64,000 nucleotides of DNA from a phage (PZ386959.1), one strand, 5' to 3'. Shown: positions 4,312 through 58,544, numbered from the stretch's first letter. Numbers and translations: made by a program. The notes: generated by a model from the sequence alone, not told the origin.

Positions 4312-5444
<1,133 letters not shown>

Positions 5445-6581
5445 TTATTCATAATCCCTAATAACTAGCCCTACAGGGAACTGTAAAGACCCCTTACGAG
5501 TCATCTTCTGGAACTGAACCGTTAAAGGTTTCCCGATAAACTCTTCAGGATGTTCAGCAAGATACTGTTTCTTCTCGTGTGTAGTTTTCCATGAAACATC
5601 TACAAAGACGTTAGGAAGAGTCTCTACAACGAACTTACCATGACCACGCTTATCGGTCTTTACACCAGTCACTTTAAACTCTTCAGTGTGCATCTTCTTG
5701 TGCTTAATCAAGAAGTATGAACGGTGACAACACTCATAGAAGGAGTCTTCAGAGATTGAACGGTACATTGCACCTTCAAACTTAGCTTCAACCCACTTAT
5801 CATGAGCTTCATCAAACTCTTCCCAAGAATTTACACGGATAGTCTGTACAGGAACCACTCTACAGGTATCCCCAAGCTCAACAATAGGTGAGTTATCAAT
5901 AACTTCACGACGCTCAGGCCAAGATTTTGAATTGTCACAGATATCATACCAGTAGAATCTAAGAAGGTGACGGTCTGGATTGTCAGCATTCTTAATCATA
6001 GATACAATATCTTCTAAGTCCCAACCATGAGCATAAATCTCTCCGTCAAAGTCTTCAACTTGCGGATGTAATTTAAGCAACAAAAGCAAATCTGGGATTA
6101 GTTCTGTTGGAACGTTGTAAACAGTATTCTCACGAGAATAAGCTGTGAAACTGACTGAATCAGCATCTCTTGAAATTCTACAACGGACACCATCAAGTTT
6201 TGGTTGAGCATCAGCAGGGAACTTCAGATACTTTGCATGACTAACCTTTGCAGCATCATGAGCAAGCTGTACACCTACCTTCTCAGTATTCTGTGCAGAT
6301 TCTTTTGTGTAAGCATAACCTTTACGGTCAACTTGCTTTTTATACTTAGCAGCAACTTCAAAGAGAGCTTGCTGTTCAGCGTTACGCTCATTCTTTTTAC
6401 CGATGTTTTTAGGTTCTGCTGTATACTCTTCAAACATCATCTTGCCATTTTCTTTACCGTAGGTTGTAATAACTTTGTCACCTACAGCAACACATGACCA
6501 GACGTTGAAGGAACCGTCTTTATTTTGTTTGTACAGAATTGTCATTTTTAACCTCTGAGTGATACCAAGTGTCGCAAGCAT
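5445..6581 (-). CDS. ATP-dependent DNA ligase
   Basis: 378 aa; nucleotidyltransferase motifs in order: KLDGVR (motif I), DGEIY (III), EGAMYR (IV), LIKHKK (V). Confidence 0.65.
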   Translation of the reverse strand: MLATLGITQRLKMTILYKQNKDGSFNVWSCVAVGDKVITTYGKENGKMMFEEYTAEPKNIGKKNERNAEQQALFEVAAKYKKQVDRKGYAYTKESAQNTEKVGVQLAHDAAKVSHAKYLKFPADAQPKLDGVRCRISRDADSVSFTAYSRENTVYNVPTELIPDLLLLLKLHPQVEDFDGEIYAHGWDLEDIVSMIKNADNPDRHLLRFYWYDICDNSKSWPERREVIDNSPIVELGDTCRVVPVQTIRVNSWEEFDEAHDKWVEAKFEGAMYRSISEDSFYECCHRSYFLIKHKKMHTEEFKVTGVKTDKRGHGKFVVETLPNVFVDVSWKTTHEKKQYLAEHPEEFIGKPLTVQFQKMTRKGSLQFPVGLVIRDYE

Positions 6582-6738
6582 TACATGCGTAAAGCTCTAA
6601 GTCGTTTTTATCTGGTTTATGGAAACAGTTTGACCCACAACGACACCGGAATAACTTACCATCAACACGAAGAATGAATGTTTCAAGCTCACCATCTTCT
6701 GTAAGAACTGCGTTCTGAAATTTATTATCTTTACCCAT
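6520..6738 (-). CDS. small zinc-ribbon protein
   Basis: 72 aa with CRCGSNC and CNACD Cys pairs; overlaps ligase start, so true start may be internal. Confidence 0.35.
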   Translation of the reverse strand: MGKDNKFQNAVLTEDGELETFILRVDGKLFRCRCGSNCFHKPDKNDLELYACNACDTWYHSEVKNDNSVQTK

Positions 6739-6894
6739 TTGTACTCTCGCCTGTGTCAGATTTCATATAATACCTATCACTACGTCTTTTAATGAAATGT
6801 ACAACGCATTTTGGTGTATTTTTTGCATCTTTAATGTGCAACCTTTCGAAACTGTGTACTGTGAAGATTGCATCTGTCATTGTTTGCTTAGATT

Positions 6895-7200
6895 TCATTT
6901 TCTCTTACTGCCAATCTCTACGTCGATAACTTGAACATAACCAGCAACATCAAACTTATGAATGATGCTTTCCACAGTGTAAGTCCAACCATCAATGCGA
7001 ACCAACTCACCTTCTCGTGGGACGATGGGATTACGTTGAGCTAAGGTTGTAGTGGAGTGAACAACATCATAACAATAGATATAGTTTACTAGGACTTCCA
7101 TCGTGAAAACCTCACTCAATAACCGTAGTGTGTGATTGACCATTTTTGCCATAGCTATAAGATGTTGTTGTTTGGGAGTTTGGACATCTGACAACAACAA
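6895..7200 (-). CDS. hypothetical protein
   Basis: 101 aa ORF; overlaps 7112..7381 in another frame, so true start may be an internal Met near 7101. Confidence 0.3.
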   Translation of the reverse strand: MLLSDVQTPKQQHLIAMAKMVNHTLRLLSEVFTMEVLVNYIYCYDVVHSTTTLAQRNPIVPREGELVRIDGWTYTVESIIHKFDVAGYVQVIDVEIGSKRK

Positions 7201-7381
7201 TATCTCTGCTTATAGCATCACCATGTAACTTGTATACTCTGCAATCTTGCATCTCTGGTGGGAGACTGTAAGAAGCATTTTTATCTTCATAAGAAGGGTT
7301 GCAGCCAGATAGAAAAACAACACCAAGCGCAATTACTGCTTTCCACATAATACTCCCCCAGAGACTGTACATTTTCTTCAT
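7112..7381 (-). CDS. putative lipoprotein
   Basis: 89 aa; hydrophobic N-terminus ending LSGC (lipobox-like). Confidence 0.4.
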   Translation of the reverse strand: MKKMYSLWGSIMWKAVIALGVVFLSGCNPSYEDKNASYSLPPEMQDCRVYKLHGDAISRDIVVVRCPNSQTTTSYSYGKNGQSHTTVIE

Positions 7382-7611
7382 AGCAACTCCAGAATATCAA
7401 TACGTTCACCTTTGAGTACTCCAGTACGGTCTTTTGCAATCTTACCTTCAACAATAAGAATGTGTGCAGACCTTAAAGTGTCACTGTTAAAGGTTTTTAC
7501 GAACCTACTAGGCATGACTACAATGCACATCTCCTGAATCAGCTCTGGAGTATAGCAGTTATCATGAAGTTGCTGAATAACGTCTGCAAGTGTCATTTTT
7601 GATGTCTCCAA
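7378..7611 (-). CDS. hypothetical protein
   Basis: 77 aa ORF, 4-nt overlap coupling. Confidence 0.4.
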   Translation of the reverse strand: METSKMTLADVIQQLHDNCYTPELIQEMCIVVMPSRFVKTFNSDTLRSAHILIVEGKIAKDRTGVLKGERIDILELL

Positions 7612-7802
7612 TATTCAATGTCTATAAGCTCTTGTGCAATGCTTTTCAGATTACCTTTCAAGAAAACCTTCTCAGAACCTGAAAGAGATGAATTATCAAT
7701 TAGCCTGTTCATTCTCTCAAACAACTTCTGCTTACGATTCTTGATGGTTTCCTTTGAAGCACCTTTCATCATTGCTGCATGAGTTCTTCCACGGTGGCTC
7801 AT
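7593..7802 (-). CDS. hypothetical protein
   Basis: 69 aa ORF. Confidence 0.35.
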   Translation of the reverse strand: MSHRGRTHAAMMKGASKETIKNRKQKLFERMNRLIDNSSLSGSEKVFLKGNLKSIAQELIDIEYWRHQK

Positions 7803-7863
7803 AAGCCCTCCTATATAAGATACAGTATAAGGTACTCTTCCATGAGAACCTTGTCAATACTAA

Positions 7864-10563
7864 TCAGTGAACCTCAAGCCAACTCTTTCCAACCTTACCT
7901 GTACCAGTTACAAGTGTTTCTTTCTTAAGACCTAAGTTCTTAGAAGCTTGCCCGTAATACCAATCAGTAACTGCTTTTACTTCTGCCGTCATACTCTCTG
8001 GACATTCCCAGCTAGTCTCATCGTGATATGCGCACAATAAGCGAGCACCTATAGCTGGTTTACGCCCATTTAGCTTCATCAACCCTTCGTCAATCATGCG
8101 ACGACAAGCAAGGTTAATTGCCTCATTTTGAATCTGGGCCTCTGAACCCATCAAAAGGTAGTTCAACAGTTTGTGTGGAGATTTACACCACAACCAAGCT
8201 CCAGCAACCTTTACAAAACCCCCTTTAGAGATTGCAGCAGTCTTACCAAACACCTCTTCAAGTGCCTTTTTAGTTGCTTTGTAGTCAGCTTCCAAGTCAT
8301 CTAGTAGCTTCTTAATTTTAGGCAAACGAATAAAGTAAGTTTGTTTAGTCAGTGCACCTTCCTGAGTAGTTGCAGCTTTAATCGTCTTAGCAAACTTCTC
8401 ATCCCCTGCACCGAACAGCAGTGCATAGATACCATTCTTAGCTTTCTTACGGCCTTTGCTAATCTCATGAAGAAGGTTCTCATCCTGAGTAGCTCGACAA
8501 GTCAAGATGTCCTGCTCATCATTCAAGCTAAAGTAAATACTGTTCAGTGTATGTGCATCAGTCCCTGAATAGACAACGTACAGGTCATTCTCAGAGTCAT
8601 AGCGAAGGTACTTATCAATCTCTGGGTTGAGGTACTCATCAAAATGTTTGCAGTAATAGCGTCCATCTTCTTGACGAATAAACTCAATCTCTTCTTTACC
8701 TTGCGTTACCGCTTTGGTGAACTCTTTATCACCCATAAAGTTACAAAGAAGAACTAGCTGGGCTGAGTTCATATCTACAGAGACAACGTTAGTACCTTCC
8801 TCACAAATCCACACTGCCCTCATTGGTTCCCCATAGACAGCAGCACCAGACGGTACGTTTACAATACCATATTGTGTCATACGTCCAGTTGAAGTACCAA
8901 ACACCATTGCGCCAGCACTAAGGCGACCATCAGGACGAATCTGGTTCAACCAACCTTTTTCATCATCCTTTGAGTTCTCAATAGTTCTGCGTCTGTGCAT
9001 CAAAGTATAGTACTTAGCAATCTTCTGTCCAAGCTCACCTTCAATCGTATCATAAGATGATTCCGTAAGTTTTGGTGAAGTACGGATTAAGCAAGGTTCA
9101 AGCAAATCTGTGTACTTCTTCACAGACCAGTTATGCTCGATGTACTGGACGCCTTCATGCTCGACATAACTCAATCCACACCGTTCTACCATCTCCTGCC
9201 ACTTAGGATGTTTTGTAATCATCTTTTTATTGTCTTTGAAACGACAAACTTTGACAGGGCGACCGTCTGAGTCTTTCTTGTAGTTCCAGTCATCTGGAAT
9301 CCAACCAACTGATTTCAAGTAGTCTTTTACAACTGCTACCTGAGTCATACGAGAAACTTCAAACTCAATTGGTGTATATGGTGCATCAATCAATCCTGTG
9401 TAGCGACTTGACTCAAGTTCAAAGTGGTTAACAACGTGGCTGTTATAGTACTTCACAGTTTTGACTGTTTTTACTGGCTTCCAGTCTTTGCATTTCTTAC
9501 CAATCTTTGCATTCAACTCATTGCAAATTGCACGAGCATCCTTCATTGCTACAAAGCCTTCCTTGTACTCTTCACCAGTTACAGAGTTGGTTGGTGTATA
9601 GCAATTTCTCTTTTCAATGTTAAAAATCTTTGTAGTTGGCTTACCAAATGGTTTGATTTCATAAGTCTGCATCTCACCATTACGCACCTGCTGACGATAC
9701 TTCGTCTTAGGGTACTTGGTAATTCTTTTCAGTCCATCTGCATGACCAAATGCTTCAACATACTCATTCCAAGCTTTTGCAAACTCTTCTCCAGTGACTT
9801 TACCTTTGGTCTTAATAGTTGGAGGTAGATGTGGTTCAACCTCTGAAGCAAGCTCATTAGTCAACTTGTCAAGTTCCTTTACATGGAACTCCATAAGCTC
9901 TTTATCAGCTTTCCAACCATTGATAGCTTGTTGACTCATCCAGAAAGATGTTTCTTTAGCTCGCATATAGGTTTCATAAGTGTCTATACCACACTTCTTA
10001 AGCTTCAGGTATTCATTATCCAGTGCACGTTTAGTTTTGGCGTTAATACGGATATCTTCTACAACACGAGTGAAGATTTCTGCATTCCACACACCCCAAT
10101 GTTCAATCTCTGGTTTACGGACACCAACACGAGCACCCCATGCAGCCAAGCCATGAGCACCTTTATAGCCTTTTGGAGTTGGTCTATCCATCCACTGAAC
10201 ACGAGACTGGATAAGAGAATCCTGAAAGAAATTACTCCACGGTTTACACTTTGGATTATCAAAGTTCCACAAATCAGGTGCAATGTGATTGAAAACCCAC
10301 CAGTCATATCCTAGACCATTGTGGATGCAAAGTCGTTTTGCCTTTAACGCAAACTCAATACCTTCACGTAAGCCGCCCTTAATGTACTTGGTATACTTGT
10401 GACCGAGGATAGGCTCATCTGTAAAGACCCATACAGGTGGCTCTTCATCGTCAGATTTATAGTCTGCGAAAGCCATTACGTGCACTTTAGTGAACTCAAG
10501 GAGTAAACCATCAGTTTCTGTATCACCAACTAAATGTAAGTTTTTAAAATCTACGTTTTCCAT
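7864..10563 (-). CDS. DNA polymerase, family A with 3'-5' exonuclease
   Basis: About 900 aa; DTETDG exo motif near N-terminus, KAKNGIYALLFGAG (motif-B-like), YHDE (motif C); start placed at second Met (MENVDF) which has GAGGGAG SD upstream. Confidence 0.8.
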   Translation of the reverse strand: MENVDFKNLHLVGDTETDGLLLEFTKVHVMAFADYKSDDEEPPVWVFTDEPILGHKYTKYIKGGLREGIEFALKAKRLCIHNGLGYDWWVFNHIAPDLWNFDNPKCKPWSNFFQDSLIQSRVQWMDRPTPKGYKGAHGLAAWGARVGVRKPEIEHWGVWNAEIFTRVVEDIRINAKTKRALDNEYLKLKKCGIDTYETYMRAKETSFWMSQQAINGWKADKELMEFHVKELDKLTNELASEVEPHLPPTIKTKGKVTGEEFAKAWNEYVEAFGHADGLKRITKYPKTKYRQQVRNGEMQTYEIKPFGKPTTKIFNIEKRNCYTPTNSVTGEEYKEGFVAMKDARAICNELNAKIGKKCKDWKPVKTVKTVKYYNSHVVNHFELESSRYTGLIDAPYTPIEFEVSRMTQVAVVKDYLKSVGWIPDDWNYKKDSDGRPVKVCRFKDNKKMITKHPKWQEMVERCGLSYVEHEGVQYIEHNWSVKKYTDLLEPCLIRTSPKLTESSYDTIEGELGQKIAKYYTLMHRRRTIENSKDDEKGWLNQIRPDGRLSAGAMVFGTSTGRMTQYGIVNVPSGAAVYGEPMRAVWICEEGTNVVSVDMNSAQLVLLCNFMGDKEFTKAVTQGKEEIEFIRQEDGRYYCKHFDEYLNPEIDKYLRYDSENDLYVVYSGTDAHTLNSIYFSLNDEQDILTCRATQDENLLHEISKGRKKAKNGIYALLFGAGDEKFAKTIKAATTQEGALTKQTYFIRLPKIKKLLDDLEADYKATKKALEEVFGKTAAISKGGFVKVAGAWLWCKSPHKLLNYLLMGSEAQIQNEAINLACRRMIDEGLMKLNGRKPAIGARLLCAYHDETSWECPESMTAEVKAVTDWYYGQASKNLGLKKETLVTGTGKVGKSWLEVH

Positions 10564-55891: not shown

Positions 55892-56118
55892 TTTTCAGTT
55901 CTCCTGCGATTTATGATTTTGCTGCAATAGAGAAACGAAGTAAACTCACTGGAAGAAACCATTAAGTGTTGTTCACTAGATTGAGCCATTGCCCTGAAAT
56001 ACATTCCAGTCAAAGCATCGTAGTGACTATTCTTTCCAATTGAGGTTATATAGCCATGACTCTTTGCAGTTTTATATAAATCTATAATATCTGCGATTTC
56101 TAATTGGGAACTACACAT
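55885..56118 (-). CDS. hypothetical protein
   Basis: 77 aa ORF. Confidence 0.4.
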   Translation of the reverse strand: MCSSQLEIADIIDLYKTAKSHGYITSIGKNSHYDALTGMYFRAMAQSSEQHLMVSSSEFTSFLYCSKIINRRRTEKC

Positions 56119-56282
56119 AGATAATCCTCTTGTCTTCTGTAATTTTGAAAGAACAGGTACAGACCAATTTCAGAGGATGAATAGTAGAGTAACTCTACCC
56201 TTTTTGATTCCTTACAGTGATTGGTATTTTTACCTTTCTTCGGGTTATTTGATTTTCTCATTAAGTCTCCTTTGTAGAACAA
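56100..56282 (-). CDS. hypothetical basic protein
   Basis: 60 aa ORF. Confidence 0.3.
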   Translation of the reverse strand: MFYKGDLMRKSNNPKKGKNTNHCKESKRVELLYYSSSEIGLYLFFQNYRRQEDYLCVVPN

Positions 56283-56350
56283 GGCAGACCTACAGCTTTA
56301 AGTAAGATGGTACAGTAATCCATACAACAAGTCAAGAACTATTGCAAGTT

Positions 56351-56383
56351 AAAAAAGTTGTTGACAAAGTACTTGACAAGGTG
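56351..56383. promoter_or_regulatory. second copy of conserved element AAAAAAGTTGTTGACAAAGTACTTGACAAGGTG
   Basis: Near-identical to 10616-10645; followed by TATAAAT; sits at a divergent junction. Confidence 0.45.
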
Positions 56384-56510
56384 TAGGCTTATAAATACTT
56401 AGAAGATAACTTAAAAGGTTCCTCTAAAAAGGCTATTTAAACAGATATCTTTCTGGATATCTATCTTTTATCTTAAAAGCCTTTTAAGAGGTCTTATAAG
56501 AGGCATACCA

Positions 56511-56882
56511 ATGAAAAACAGAACAAACAAAGGCCAGTTTAAAAAAGGCCAGTCTGGTAACCCATCTGGAAGACCGAAAGGTTCACGTAACAAAAGCTCA
56601 CTCGTAAAAGCTCAACTGACCATTGATAATTCTGCTGAGTTCGCTGCAAAGCTGTTTGAGGCGATTGTTACAAGGGATGCGGCTAAGCTTGCAGAGTTCG
56701 GGTTAAACACAGATGACGTAACCATCAAGAGTATGATTGAGGTCGGTAAAACTATCTTTACTCACTCAGCAGGTGAGATGAAAGCACTTGCAGCAGACAC
56801 TAAGAAGACTCCTGATAATGGTGGTCAACAACAGACAGATAACAAACCAACGTTCTCTGCTGTAGCGACTCTCAAAAAATAA
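56511..56882 (+). CDS. hypothetical protein with GNPSGRPKG motif
   Basis: 123 aa; N-terminal basic Gly-rich segment KGQSGNPSGRPKGSRNK. Confidence 0.45.
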   Translation: MKNRTNKGQFKKGQSGNPSGRPKGSRNKSSLVKAQLTIDNSAEFAAKLFEAIVTRDAAKLAEFGLNTDDVTIKSMIEVGKTIFTHSAGEMKALAADTKKTPDNGGQQQTDNKPTFSAVATLKK

Positions 56883-56963
56883 TTTTAAAAGGTGTTGACA
56901 GACTCTACAAAGTTGCTCTAAAGTCTGTCACATCAAACAATAAATGAGAGAAGAGAGTAAAAT

Positions 56964-58379
56964 ATGAGCGAGTTATTTAAACATGCGCACCTTCATGCAG
57001 GTCGAACTGAAAATGGTGCTGTAAACCATACTTCATCAATGTCTGCTCTGGTAGACTTCTACAAAGCCGCTGGCTCAAGCCGTAGCAATGTAGAAATCTT
57101 ACCAGACCTGTTCTACAAAGCTTTGCGTGAGGATGTTGATGTTGCAGTTCGTATTTTACTGCATATGCGAGATGTACGAGAAGGTATGGGTGAGCGTAAA
57201 GCTTTCAGAACTGTTTTACTTCAAGCAATCGAAGACAAAGTTTTAGAACCTACACAGGTACTTCGTATTATGGATAAGGTTGCAGAACTTGGTCGTTTTG
57301 ATGACTTCAAAATCTTCGTAGGCACTCGTTTTGAGACAGATGCCTTCAAACATTTAGAAGCAGCGTTACTAGACCCTGCAACAGCAGGTTTAGCAGCCAA
57401 GTGGCTACCACGAGTAAAACCACGCCACAAACAGTTTGTAAAACGTTTCTGTAAGTTTGCAAACTTAAGCGAGAAAGAGTACCGAACACTGTTATCTGCA
57501 CTGTCTGATACGGTTGAGCAAAAAATCTCTGCTAATGAGTTTGGTAAGATTGACTACAGCAAGATTCCTTCACTCGCTGCTGCACGTTACCAAAAACTCT
57601 TTAACCGTAAAGATGGAGAACGCTACAAAGCTTACATCGAGTCATTATCAAAAGGTGAGGCTAAGATTAACGCTGGTGCTATTTACCCATACGATGTGAT
57701 TAAATCTATTAAGTATGGTAATGCAGATGTTGCTAATGAACAGTGGAAAGCACTTCCAAACTGGATGGCAGAAGGTGAGAACATCTTGTGTATGACTGAT
57801 GTCTCAAGCTCAATGTCTTGGGTGAATTTCGGTTCAATCACGGCTCTTGATATTGGTGTATCTCTTGCCCTGTATGTAGCAGAACGCAACACAGGCTGCT
57901 TTAAGAATGAGTTAATGGTTTATTCAACAAACCCTCACTTCATCGAACTGAGTGGTGATTTACGAAACCGTCATCGTCAGGTAATGCGTTATACTGAATA
58001 TGGTTCAACTAACTTGCAAGCAGCTTTTGACCGCATTCTTGAGACAGGTAAGAGAAACAACTTGACTCAGAAAGATATGCCAAGTAAGCTTATCATCTTC
58101 TCTGATATGGAGTTCAATCAGGTTGACGGTGCAAATGGTTGTACAAACTTTGAAGCAATTCGTAGTAAGTACAAAAAAGCTGGATACGAAATGCCACAAC
58201 TGGTATTCTGGTACTTAGCAAACCGTAATGGTACTTGCGAAGTGTCTGTTAAGGATAACGGTGTAGCAATGGTATCAGGGTTCTCTCCAGCCACTTTAAA
58301 AGCTCTGCTTGGTGGTGAGAAGTTTGACCCAACCAGCGTAATGCTCAAAGCAGTAATGATTGACCGTTACATCTGGTAA
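56964..58379 (+). CDS. vWA-domain protein (possibly TROVE/DUF2828-like)
   Basis: 471 aa; MIDAS-like DVSSSMSW (DxSxS) in C-terminal half; N-terminal half with TENGA motif; family assignment from memory only. Confidence 0.35.
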   Translation: MSELFKHAHLHAGRTENGAVNHTSSMSALVDFYKAAGSSRSNVEILPDLFYKALREDVDVAVRILLHMRDVREGMGERKAFRTVLLQAIEDKVLEPTQVLRIMDKVAELGRFDDFKIFVGTRFETDAFKHLEAALLDPATAGLAAKWLPRVKPRHKQFVKRFCKFANLSEKEYRTLLSALSDTVEQKISANEFGKIDYSKIPSLAAARYQKLFNRKDGERYKAYIESLSKGEAKINAGAIYPYDVIKSIKYGNADVANEQWKALPNWMAEGENILCMTDVSSSMSWVNFGSITALDIGVSLALYVAERNTGCFKNELMVYSTNPHFIELSGDLRNRHRQVMRYTEYGSTNLQAAFDRILETGKRNNLTQKDMPSKLIIFSDMEFNQVDGANGCTNFEAIRSKYKKAGYEMPQLVFWYLANRNGTCEVSVKDNGVAMVSGFSPATLKALLGGEKFDPTSVMLKAVMIDRYIW

Positions 58380-58544
58380 AAAGTTTTAAAAAGGGTATTG
58401 ACAATATGTTTAATACCCTTTAATATGTTCTACATAGAAACGAAATGAGAGCTTTTCTAAGATACTGAAAAATATTTTAAAAAAGTTCTTGACAACCACT
58501 AAAAAATAATGTTAAAGTGGTTACATAGAGTTTGAAAAGTTTAT

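What the first reader, a model, noticed from the sequence alone, without database searches (positions are those of the whole stretch)
56964..58379. vWA-domain protein directly upstream of the tRNA cluster: possible Ro60/TROVE-like RNA-binding protein
This 471-aa protein has a MIDAS-like DxSxS motif (DVSSSMSW) in its C-terminal half and an N-terminal region with a TENGA motif, which I recall from TROVE/DUF2828-type proteins. Ro60-family proteins bind tRNA-like Y RNAs that are encoded next to them, and this gene sits immediately before a tRNA cluster containing unexplained tRNA-like and spacer RNAs. The family assignment rests on motif memory and is uncertain.
Basis: inference. Interest (0 to 1): 0.5.

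Follow-up and report, generated by a model that had tools for sequence, protein, structure and literature searches.

The report
Phage Ro60-like protein with Y-like RNAs
The gene encodes a phage version of the ring-shaped RNA-binding protein Ro60, already reported in a near-identical phage as a counter-defence factor, and four previously undescribed small structured RNAs hidden between the neighbouring tRNA genes are its likely RNA partners.

Summary
The 471-aa ORF at 56964-58379 carries the TENGA and DVSSSMSW (MIDAS) motifs and ends 165 nt before a 26-tRNA array. The window is a Felix O1-like phage.

The idea is not new. The protein is 97% identical to Bas63 gp130. A 2024 preprint reported gp130 as Ro60-like, sitting upstream of the tRNAs, and countering the Ppl defence.

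What is new is the RNA partner. Four unannotated elements in the tRNA spacers (58711-58789, 58878-58943, 59292-59374, 59382-59520) share a covarying closing helix followed by an invariant CAGCAA box. The fourth encloses a permuted tRNA-like module of the YrlA type.

Covariance models find the same "handle" beside homologous genes in 49 of 77 phage loci and 44 of 80 bacterial-assembly loci. Every hit is on the gene's strand. None fell in 94 unrelated contigs.

Binding of these RNAs by the protein is inferred, not shown.

The parts
56895..56924 (+). Promoter-like site (TTGACA-18-TAAAGT) 40 nt upstream of the Ro60-like gene
   Evidence: Consensus scan, 10 of 12 matches. The number of such sites in the region is not above shuffles, so this is position-based inference only.
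56964..58379 (+). Ro60-like protein gene (471 aa; Pfam DUF2828 + DUF7788; PHROG 850); ortholog of Bas63 gp130
56964..57758 (+). N-terminal all-helical half (about residues 1-265), the TROVE-like helical-repeat part of the ring; includes the invariant TENGA and RDVRxGxGER motifs
57786..58376 (+). C-terminal vWA domain (DUF7788, residues 275-456 matched) with a complete MIDAS: D279-x-S281-x-S283 (nt 57798-57812), T349, D381
   Evidence: MIDAS residues are invariant in 51 homologs. VWA_2 hits occur in 32 of 51 relatives and vWA_Ro60 (PF25045) hits in 11 of 51, though not in the window protein itself.
58398..58518 (+). Two promoter-like sites (58398-58426 and 58489-58518) directly upstream of tRNA-Pro; likely start of the tRNA/Y-like RNA transcription unit
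   Evidence: 10 of 12 matches each. Inference from position.
58711..58789 (+). Y-like RNA c1 (79 nt, short class). Outer helix UGAC/GUCA, internal loop AGA/G, inner helix AGACCAA/UUGGUCU, linker UUA, CAGCAA box at 58728-58733. It fills the spacer between tRNA-Glu and tRNA-Met.
   Evidence: Model R1 scores 45.1 bits, E 3e-7, but c1 is a seed member. Conserved in Bas63, Moogle, Sf17 and CHB7. Helix covariation.
58878..58943 (+). Y-like RNA c2 (66 nt, short class). Outer helix UUGC/GCAA (UUAC/GUAA in Bas63, Moogle, Sf17), inner helix AGACCGU/ACGGUCU, CAGCAA at 58895-58900. It fills the spacer between tRNA-Met and tRNA-Asn.
   Evidence: R1 scores 44 bits (seed member).
59292..59374 (+). Y-like RNA c3 (83 nt, short class). 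Outer helix GAGC/GCUC, inner helix AGACCAA/UUGGUCU, CAGCAA at 59309-59314.
   Evidence: R1 scores 37.5 bits (seed member).
59382..59520 (+). Y-like RNA c4 (139 nt, long YrlA-type class). It has the same handle (outer UUAC/GUAA, inner AGACCGUU/AACGGUCU, CAGCAA at 59399-59404). The handle encloses a V hairpin (59421-59437), a T-arm GAAGG-UUCGAUU-CCUUC (59442-59458), a closed 7-bp acceptor-like hairpin (59459-59476) and a D-arm (59478-59494).
   Evidence: Fold. Ortholog alignment A2: 98.9% of cells paired against 41-55% when slid, and 3 of 7 acceptor-like pairs covary. Model R2, built from it, finds full-length matches in distant phages with 32 of 34 pairs covarying. It is not a canonical tRNA: ARAGORN makes no call and Rfam tRNA gives 22 bits, below the 29-bit threshold.
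58545..63556 (+). Array of 26 tRNA genes on the same strand. It provides the context and the presumed processing framework for c1-c4.

Best explanation
The gene encodes a sequence-divergent Ro60: a ring of helical repeats closed by a MIDAS-bearing vWA domain. In infected cells it forms ribonucleoprotein particles with four phage-encoded Y-like RNAs (c1-c4). These RNAs are transcribed as part of the adjacent tRNA array. RNase P and the 3'-end tRNA processing enzymes probably release them, because c1 and c2 exactly fill inter-tRNA spacers. The protein is proposed to recognise a common 'handle' made of an outer helix, an asymmetric internal loop (5' AGA / 3' G), a 7-8 bp inner helix of free sequence, and a single-stranded CAGCAA box just 3' of the 5' strand. 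The part enclosed by the handle (the payload) varies: a short hairpin in c1-c3, a permuted tRNA mimic in c4, and a normal-order tRNA-like body in some other phages. By analogy with Ro60/Y RNA particles, the RNP would tether or sequester RNA-handling host factors, such as exoribonucleases or tRNA-binding enzymes and nucleases, to protect phage RNA metabolism. One experimentally shown output, in the 97%-identical Bas63 gp130, is protection against the Ppl (ATPase + PHP) defence system. What is shown here by computation: the fold, the MIDAS residues, the existence, structure and covariation of the RNAs, and their family-wide same-strand linkage to the gene. What others have shown by experiment: the anti-Ppl phenotype of the ortholog. 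What is inferred: protein-RNA binding, release by tRNA processing, and the downstream mechanism.

For: RNAs in the window. The 5' box occurs 4 times at 0 mismatches and nowhere else in 64 kb, with 0 of 100 shuffles reaching the count. All four copies fold to the same closing architecture. They keep their positions across three Ounavirinae genera, with compensatory changes. For the closing stem, 5 of 11 pairs covary, with 100% pairing against 19-45% when slid. For c4, 98.9% of cells are paired.

Family-wide linkage. A strict pattern scan gives 76 elements on the gene strand against 6 on the opposite strand, and 41 of 75 loci have one within 600 nt of the gene. Model R1 gives 59 hits at E <= 0.05 in 49 of 77 loci, all on the gene strand, and 27 of those loci were not in the seed. 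R1 gives no hit in 94 unrelated viral contigs. In 80 bacterial-assembly loci it gives 53 hits in 44 loci, all on the gene strand. The c4-derived model R2 finds full-length matches, including mycobacteriophage Rumpelstiltskin at 45 bits, and 32 of 34 pairs covary. Long elements of relatives hit Rfam YrlA at E 4e-5 to 2e-6, and their T, acceptor-like and D arms align to it.

Other points. No protein neighbour is conserved across the family, so the RNA is the only constant companion. The elements occur beside the gene in at least 18 loci that have no tRNA at all. Same-strand adjacency within 4 kb is the criterion by which bacterial Y RNAs were defined (PMC4201824).
Against: No binding data exist for any DUF2828 protein and these RNAs. 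Bas63 gp130 alone, from a plasmid or inserted in T7 (which lacks these RNAs), is enough to counter Ppl. So that phenotype does not need c1-c4, or host RNAs substitute for them. The window's c4 gets no Rfam YrlA hit even at E <= 10, and the YrlA GNCGAA motif is absent from the handle. 23 of 77 phage loci and 36 of 80 bacterial-assembly loci show no element with the current models. The percent-paired figures for A3 and A4 are partly circular, because pairing was a collection criterion, and A6 was fitted to the model. Model E-values are rough because calibration was shortened. Expression and the ends of the RNAs are unverified.
Confidence: 0.65

Rival explanations
1. The protein is Ro60-like but acts without dedicated phage RNAs, for example by binding host RNAs or Ppl directly through its MIDAS face. 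On this view c1-c4 are structural or processing spacers of the tRNA operon that merely happen to lie nearby.
For: gp130 alone rescues T7 on Ppl hosts. c1 and c2 sit exactly between tRNAs, where processing signals would be expected.
Against: The same handle flanks the homologous gene in at least 18 loci with no tRNA within 5 kb. It also does so in Clostridia, Chloroflexi and Spirochaete assemblies. It is absent from 94 unrelated viral contigs. It is the only conserved neighbour of the gene. An invariant single-stranded box next to a freely covarying helix is typical of a protein-recognition site.
Confidence: 0.17
2. The elements are cis-acting parts of the Ro60-like gene's own transcript. They would be autoregulatory binding sites or UTR stabilisers rather than trans-acting Y-like RNAs.
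For: In many distant loci the element lies 18-30 nt after the stop codon or within 200 nt upstream of the start codon, which is compatible with a UTR.
Against: In this window the elements start 332 nt downstream of the gene. They lie behind two promoter-like sites and two tRNAs. They occur in four copies, and one carries a full tRNA-like module with tRNA-type T and D loops. Loci often hold 2-5 copies. Known bacterial Y RNAs are likewise co-oriented and adjacent to rsr, yet act in trans (PMC4201824).
Confidence: 0.1
3. The repeats act at the DNA level, as promoters (TTGACA overlaps the 5' end of c1) or as recombination or mobile-element sites.
For: The outer-helix 5' strands TTGACA (c1) and TTTACA (c4) resemble -35 hexamers.
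Against: The '-35-like' bases covary with a partner 60-135 nt downstream: UGAC/GUCA, UUGC/GCAA, GAGC/GCUC. G-U pairs occur, which is consistent only with the + strand RNA. All 138 model hits are on one strand. The promoter scan did not call these sites.
Confidence: 0.03
4. The protein is a generic vWA/MIDAS protein, such as a MoxR-type co-chaperone or a Ku-like or midasin-like module, with no Ro60 relationship.
For: No HMMER hit to any solved Ro60 at E <= 10. No Pfam TROVE hit.
Confidence: 0.03

Closest known systems
Bas63 (Escherichia phage JohannRWettstein, MZ501086) gp130, the Ppl counter-defence protein from the PhageMaP preprint (PMC11482910)
   Same: Ortholog: 457 of 471 residues identical, and the same position directly upstream of tRNA-Pro. 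The authors already noted structural similarity to Ro60 and suggested Y RNAs among the neighbouring tRNA genes.
   Different: They named no specific RNA and suspected annotated tRNAs. Here the candidates are four unannotated spacer elements, which are also present in Bas63 at L001 22066-22144, 22233-22302, 22688-22767 and 22775-22912.
Ro60/Rsr with YrlA and YrlB Y RNAs of bacteria and mycobacteriophages (Chen et al. 2014, PMC4201824; Rfam RF02553)
   Same: The protein fold (ring plus MIDAS vWA). ncRNA genes on the same strand within 4 kb. One RNA per locus with a permuted tRNA-like domain in the order V, T arm, closed acceptor-like stem, D arm, plus shorter companion RNAs. The tRNA-like core of relatives aligns to the YrlA model.
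   Different: No sequence-detectable TROVE domain. The handle is a covarying helix plus CAGCAA rather than GNCGAA(N)G. All scores fall below Rfam's 69-bit threshold: relatives reach at most 39 bits and window c4 gets no hit. The RNAs are embedded in a tRNA array.
Thermus phage phiLo phiRo60 with Yrl1 and Yrl2 (Hu et al. 2025, PMC12135203; PDB 9KOP, 9L5Y)
   Different: About 15% identity and no HMMER similarity. phiRo60 is deposited as a TROVE-domain protein. Its RNAs carry a CGAA motif in a bulge and lie upstream of the gene, and no tRNA array is involved.
Mycobacteriophage cluster L 'Ro-like RNA-binding protein' (Rumpelstiltskin gp54, LeBron gp53)
   Same: The same DUF2828 family, at about 34% identity over 98% of the length. 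Three handle RNAs (short, long tRNA-like, short), all with CAGCAA, follow gp54 and end at a terminator-like hairpin: L206 4441-4505, 4502-4638 and 4637-4705.
   Different: No tRNA array is present, and the closing-helix sequences are different (GGACGC, GGACUCC, GGUCAC). LeBron gp53 is moderately toxic when overexpressed (PMC13148394). The papers found do not mention the RNAs.

Membership tests
Pfam DUF2828 + DUF7788 / PHROG 850 | Profile match above the curated cut-off | tested here: met
   DUF7788 scores 147.9 bits (cut-off 27.1) and DUF2828 scores 102.5 bits (cut-off 29). phrog_850 matches at 7.7e-183 over the full length.
Ro60 / Rsr (TROVE + vWA) | Closed ring of helical (HEAT-like) repeats capped by a vWA domain | tested here: met
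Ro60 / Rsr (TROVE + vWA) | Sequence-profile match to the TROVE domain (Pfam PF05731) or to solved Ro60 sequences | tested here: not met
   No TROVE hit at E <= 1 for the window protein or for any of 51 relatives. phmmer and profile hmmsearch against PDB sequences give no Ro60 hit at E <= 10.
Ro60 / Rsr (TROVE + vWA) | Ro60-type vWA domain (Pfam PF25045) with a MIDAS motif | tested here: inconclusive
   The MIDAS set D279, S281, S283, T349, D381 is invariant. PF25045 is hit weakly by 11 of 51 relatives (best E 1.7e-4) but not by the window protein.
Ro60 / Rsr (TROVE + vWA) | Candidate Y RNA gene(s) on the same strand within 4 kb (criterion of Chen et al. 2014) | tested here: met
   c1-c4 lie 332-1141 nt downstream on the + strand. 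The same holds family-wide.
Ro60 / Rsr (TROVE + vWA) | Physical binding of Y RNA on the ring surface and of single-stranded RNA ends in the central hole | not testable with these tools
   Needs RIP/CLIP, EMSA or an experimental structure.
YrlA (Rfam RF02553) | Score at or above Rfam's gathering threshold (69 bits) | tested here: not met
   Window c4 gets no hit at E <= 10 in a 971-nt search. Relatives score 39.2, 38.9 and 28.7 bits.
YrlA (Rfam RF02553) | Permuted tRNA-like domain: V, T arm, closed acceptor-like stem, D arm, enclosed by the paired 5' and 3' ends | tested here: met
   c4 fold. 34 pairs are 98.9% paired across orthologs, with covariation in the acceptor-like stem. 32 of 34 pairs covary across distant phages.
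YrlA (Rfam RF02553) | GNCGAA(N0-1)G motif near the 5' end (the putative Ro60-binding site) | tested here: not met
   The 5' box is CAGCAA. The only GGCGAAG in c4 is the T-stem 5' strand, and it is not conserved: Moogle has GAGAGAAGG and L129 has GGAGAAGG. YrlA's outer stem does not pair when aligned to the L200 elements.
Canonical tRNA | Cloverleaf with open acceptor stem and anticodon arm; detected by ARAGORN or at Rfam's 29-bit threshold | tested here: not met
   c1-c4 are not called by ARAGORN. c4 scores 22 bits on Rfam tRNA, over model positions 7-64 only.
Anti-defence proteins (Ppl counter) | Loss reduces, and expression restores, phage growth on hosts carrying the defence | not testable with these tools
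   Shown experimentally for the 97%-identical Bas63 gp130 (PMC11482910). Not tested for this phage.

The most novel reading that the evidence does not exclude
The helix + CAGCAA handle is a modular address tag. It lets a very large, unrecognised branch of Ro60 (DUF2828/DUF7788, in phages of Proteobacteria, Actinobacteria and Firmicutes) load interchangeable RNA payloads: hairpins, permuted tRNA mimics, or whole tRNA-like bodies. The resulting RNPs would be a general phage counter-defence device, for example decoys or shields against tRNA- or RNA-targeting immune nucleases, or platforms that hijack host exoribonucleases or RNA repair. tRNA arrays would serve as their production line.
Probability: 0.25. 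Interest if true: 0.8.

Novelty: new variant of a known kind. Interest (0 to 1): 0.62.

Why it matters
Bacterial and phage Ro60/Y RNA particles are widespread, but their function is poorly understood. This work gives a tractable E. coli/Salmonella phage system in which the protein already has a genetic phenotype (anti-Ppl), and it now adds four concrete, mutable candidate RNA partners.

It also recasts a large domain-of-unknown-function family as a Ro60 branch with its own RNA family, one that Rfam's YrlA model misses. The family has more than 2,300 detected homologs, 710 phage records, and many Clostridia assemblies.

It shows that phage tRNA arrays carry non-tRNA passenger RNAs. It also flags small ORFs annotated over these RNAs as probably spurious.

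Tried and rejected
- Sequence searches against solved structures, with a single sequence and with a 51-member profile, found no Ro60. NCBIfam found nothing.
- Rfam at E <= 1 over 56000-64000, and at E <= 10 over 58700-59670, gave no Y RNA or YrlA hit in the window.
- The supplements of Chen et al. 2014 (YrlA alignments, phage table) are not held. I therefore could not check whether any DUF2828-encoding phage was in their list of 22.
- A scan of viral contigs for the exact 5' box returned mostly single chance matches. Only six Felix-like contigs were real. These loci were reused as a negative control.
- The strict Ounavirinae regex found nothing in Yersinia P778 or L131. Relaxing the helix sequence, and then using covariance models, did find elements there.
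- A MAFFT alignment of long elements from distant phages (A5) was too poor in the interior to model, and it showed that payloads are heterogeneous. I used the reciprocal model from Ounavirinae orthologs instead.
- Conserved protein neighbours as functional clues turned out not to be general. RNA ligase 1 occurs in 2 of 77 loci, metallophosphoesterase in 4 of 77, and DUF5681 only in close relatives.
- I found no mechanistic paper on Ppl and no paper describing RNAs next to phage Ro-like genes of this family.
- One megablast call duplicated and added nothing.
- Correction to my notebook: tRNA or tmRNA genes lie within 5 kb in 23 of 60 distant loci, not 27.

Full report
**Observation.** The ORF is real: 56964-58379 on the + strand, ATG start, 471 aa. 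It contains TENGA at residues 15-19 and DVSSSMSW at residues 279-286. In an alignment of 51 homologs at 43-88% identity, T15, N17 and G18 are invariant. So is the full MIDAS set D279, S281, S283, T349 and D381. The gene ends 165 nt before tRNA-Pro, the first of 26 same-strand tRNA genes between 58545 and 63556. The window is a Felixounavirus, about 97% identical in DNA to Escherichia phage JH2. Records annotate this gene variously as hypothetical, "vWFA protein", "DUF2828 family protein" or "RNA-binding protein".

**What the protein is.** Pfam assigns DUF2828 (3e-29) and DUF7788 (3e-43). PHROGs assigns phrog_850, "RNA-binding protein", at 8e-183 over the full length.

No sequence method links the protein to Ro60. 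phmmer and a 51-sequence profile against all PDB sequences give nothing at E <= 10. No member of the alignment hits Pfam TROVE. Only 11 of 51 members, not including the window protein, weakly hit the Ro60-specific vWA model.

**Prior art.** The protein is 457/471 identical to bas63_0130 of phage Bas63, which has the same position before tRNA-Pro. The PhageMaP preprint (PMC11482910) reports three things about gp130. Deleting it shrinks Bas63 plaques on hosts carrying the Ppl defence, a single protein with ATPase and PHP domains. Expressing it, from a plasmid or from the T7 genome, restores T7 plaquing on Ppl hosts.

Homologs are common: 710 phage records and more than 2,300 database proteins. 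In mycobacteriophages they are annotated "Ro-like RNA binding protein". LeBron gp53 is moderately toxic on overexpression (PMC13148394).

**The RNAs in the window.** Reading the tRNA spacers shows a recurring element, which the repeat finder confirms (families D5, D13, D17, D18). The 5' box CAGAAGACC-N5-CAGCAA occurs four times at zero mismatches and nowhere else in 64 kb. None of 100 shuffles reaches the observed count. Each 5' box is followed 60-130 nt later by GGUCUGG.

All four copies fold to the same closing architecture:
- an outer 4-bp helix: UGAC/GUCA, UUGC/GCAA, GAGC/GCUC, UUAC/GUAA;
- an internal loop, 5' AGA and 3' G;
- an inner 7-8 bp helix: AGACCAA/UUGGUCU or AGACCGU/ACGGUCU;
- a 2-3 nt linker followed by a single-stranded CAGCAA.

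c1 (58711-58789) and c2 (58878-58943) exactly fill the tRNA-Glu/tRNA-Met and tRNA-Met/tRNA-Asn spacers. c3 (59292-59374) and c4 (59382-59520) lie between tRNA-Asp and tRNA-Lys.

c4 additionally encloses a V hairpin, a T-arm (GAAGG-UUCGAUU-CCUUC), a closed 7-bp acceptor-like hairpin and a D-arm (U8, A14, G18G19 and A21 equivalents). This is the V-T-AS-D order that defines YrlA-type bacterial Y RNAs (PMC4201824).

**Conservation within Ounavirinae.** An unfiltered scan finds the four elements at the same positions in Bas63, Moogle, Sf17 and CHB7. Every true copy shows 4/4 outer pairs and at least 7/8 inner pairs, whereas chance hits show 1-2/4.

Differences between orthologs are compensatory. 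The outer helix of c2 is UUGC/GCAA in some phages and UUAC/GUAA in others. The acceptor-like hairpin of c4 is ACUCG.../...CGAGU in Felixounavirus, ACACG.../...CGUGU in Sf17 and CHB7, and a completely different ACCCUUC/GAAGGGU in Moogle.

On 8 c4 orthologs, 98.9% of cells pair against 41-55% with slid partners, and 3 of 7 acceptor-like pairs covary. On 25 distinct closing stems, 5 of 11 pairs covary, and pairing is 100% against 19-45% when slid. Pairing was a collection criterion, so only the covariation counts as evidence there.

**A family-wide partnership.** I fetched 75 viral loci encoding homologs at 38-47% identity. In 23 of the first 60, tRNA or tmRNA genes lie within 5 kb, and every one is on the gene's strand.

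Orphan T-arms near the gene led to the general architecture. It consists of a 7-bp helix of arbitrary sequence, a 2-4 nt linker, a CAGCAA box (variants CCGCAA, CUGCAA, CAGCAU), a variable payload, the complementary strand, and then G.

A strict scan counts 76 such elements on the gene strand against 6 on the opposite strand. 52 of 75 loci have at least one, and 41 have one within 600 nt of the gene. Distances cluster at +18 to +30 nt and at -27 to -200 nt.

A covariance model of the short class (R1, from 33 sequences, in which all 7 helix pairs covary) gave these results:
- In the window it finds only c1-c3, plus the 5' part of c4.
- In 774 kb of homolog loci it finds 59 hits at E <= 0.05 in 49 of 77 loci, all on the gene strand. 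27 of those loci had not contributed to the seed.
- In 948 kb of other viral contigs it finds hits only in six Felix-like contigs, and none in the other 94.
- In 80 loci from bacterial assemblies (Clostridia, Chloroflexi, Spirochaetes and others) it finds 53 hits in 44 loci, all on the gene strand and mostly just upstream of the gene.

A second model (R2) was built only from Ounavirinae c4 orthologs. It finds full-length matches in distant phages: L149 at 59 bits, L200 at 52 bits, mycobacteriophage Rumpelstiltskin at 45 bits and Yersinia P778 at 37 bits. All 26 hits are on the gene strand. On the resulting alignment, which is fitted to the model, 32 of 34 pairs covary and 90% of cells pair, against 37-44% when slid.

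In Rumpelstiltskin, three elements (short, long tRNA-like, short), all with CAGCAA, follow gp54 and end at a terminator-like hairpin. No protein neighbour is conserved across the family, so the RNA is the protein's only constant companion. The element accompanies the gene in at least 18 loci that have no tRNA at all. It is therefore not simply a tRNA-operon processing signal.

**Relation to known Y RNAs.** Rfam holds YrlA (RF02553, gathering score 69 bits). Long elements of relatives hit it significantly but below that threshold: 39.2, 38.9 and 28.7 bits, with E values from 4e-5 to 2e-6. The alignment shows that the T arm, the closed acceptor-like stem and the D arm correspond. YrlA's outer stem, which carries the GNCGAA motif, does not pair in these elements. 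The CAGCAA box sits at the equivalent 5' edge. The window's c4 gets no YrlA hit even at E <= 10.

So the tRNA-like core is shared and the protein-binding handle is different, as expected if a divergent Ro60 recognises a divergent site. In a few phages the handle encloses a normal-order D-anticodon-T body, which ARAGORN calls as a tRNA (L162 4727-4841, L169 4751-4861). That fits the preprint's guess that some "tRNAs" are Y-like. In this window, however, the candidates are unannotated spacers and the 26 tRNAs look canonical.

**Mechanism, with its status.** The following is shown computationally here: the Ro60 fold, the intact MIDAS, four structured RNAs, and their evolutionary coupling to the gene. 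The anti-Ppl activity of the ortholog has been shown experimentally by others.

The following is inferred:
- The protein binds the handle.
- The RNAs are made from the tRNA-array transcript. Promoter-like sites lie at 58398 and 58489.
- RNase P and the 3'-end tRNA processing enzymes release the RNAs.
- The RNP acts as in Ro60/Y RNA systems, by tethering or sequestering RNA-handling factors. In Deinococcus and Salmonella, Y RNA tethers PNPase. Thermus phage phiRo60-Yrl binds and attenuates host PNPase (PMC12135203).

The main caveat is that gp130 alone suffices against Ppl in T7. The RNAs may therefore serve other functions of the RNP, or host RNAs may substitute for them.

**Verdict.** The protein-level claim is already known. 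The specific RNA partners, and the recognition of DUF2828/DUF7788 as a large Ro60 branch with its own Y-like RNA family, appear to be new. I found no description in Rfam or in the searchable literature.

Noticed in passing
window 59976-60221 (tag frame 60069-60098, stop codons 60099-60104): A tmRNA-like region lies between tRNA-Ile and tRNA-Arg. A reading frame encodes ANDNVFLAVA followed by two stops, resembling the E. coli tmRNA tag. Rfam gives sub-threshold hits (tmRNA_permuted 29 bits at 59917-60101; tmRNA 16 bits at 60033-60221), and ARAGORN makes no call. The peptide is conserved in Bas63, Moogle, Sf17 and CHB7, with only synonymous (GAC>GAT) and stop-to-stop (TGA>TAA) changes. A strong promoter-like site (11 of 12 matches) sits at 59991.
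   Followed up: partly
window 60443-60517: An uncalled tRNA-like sequence, ending in ...GGGGUUCAACUCCUCCGUCCCAUGCCA. It scores 23 bits on the Rfam tRNA-Sec model and ARAGORN makes no call. It is conserved at 84-97% in Ounavirinae and at 78% in Yersinia phage P778.
   Followed up: partly
window 59519-59662: A very stable 144-nt hairpin with a 22-bp basal stem lies immediately after c4 (-49.6 kcal/mol, z = -6.4). Its apical stem-loop CAGACC-UUAAGCAA-GUCUGG (59621-59642) looks like a payload-free miniature of the handle. BLAST finds it in Bas63 but not in Moogle, Sf17 or CHB7.
   Followed up: partly
window 59396-59614 (-); L001 22749-22901 and 22913-23023 (bas63_0137, bas63_0138): Small 'hypothetical protein' ORFs on the opposite strand overlap c3 and c4. 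Given the conserved RNA structure on the + strand, these annotated CDSs are probably spurious.
   Followed up: no
L162 4727-4841; L169 4751-4861 and 4859-4968: In some distant phages the helix + CAGCAA handle encloses a normal-order D-arm, anticodon-arm and T-arm body. ARAGORN calls two of these as tRNA-Thr(tgt) and tRNA-Asn(att). They look like tRNAs with paired leader and trailer sequences that carry the box.
   Followed up: partly
L207 4279-5391 and 7842-8555; also L133, L144: In one lineage the Ro60-like gene is flanked by a T4-type RNA ligase 1 (the tRNA-repair ligase) and a metallophosphoesterase. This echoes the bacterial rsr-yrlA-rtcBA RNA-repair operon. The arrangement is not general: 2 of 77 and 4 of 77 loci respectively.
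   Followed up: yes
L003 (Citrobacter phage Moogle NC_027293) 5082-8404; L002 (Yersinia phage P778 PP693300): There are annotation problems in public records. Moogle's tRNAs are annotated on the strand opposite to the one used in Sf17 and CHB7 at the same coordinates. The P778 record lists no tRNAs in the fetched stretch although ARAGORN finds 26 there, and it has small ORFs annotated across that array.
   Followed up: no
window 56511-56882: The upstream gene (123 aa, DUF5681, phrog_4114) has a very basic, glycine-rich N-terminus (KGQFKKGQSGNPSGRPKGSRNK). It is conserved next to the Ro60-like gene only in Ounavirinae, Yersinia P778 and L131.
   Followed up: partly
L143 10696-10922: A group I intron (Rfam 71.5 bits, above threshold) lies in a distant phage locus that also carries the Ro60-like gene and three handle RNAs.
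   Followed up: no
window 61639-62196 and 62585-63382: Two protein genes are embedded inside the tRNA array. One is a 185-aa protein with a hydrophobic N-terminus (phrog_2143). The other is a 265-aa protein (phrog_2114) with weak similarity to tape-measure and GTP-binding-domain families.
   Followed up: no
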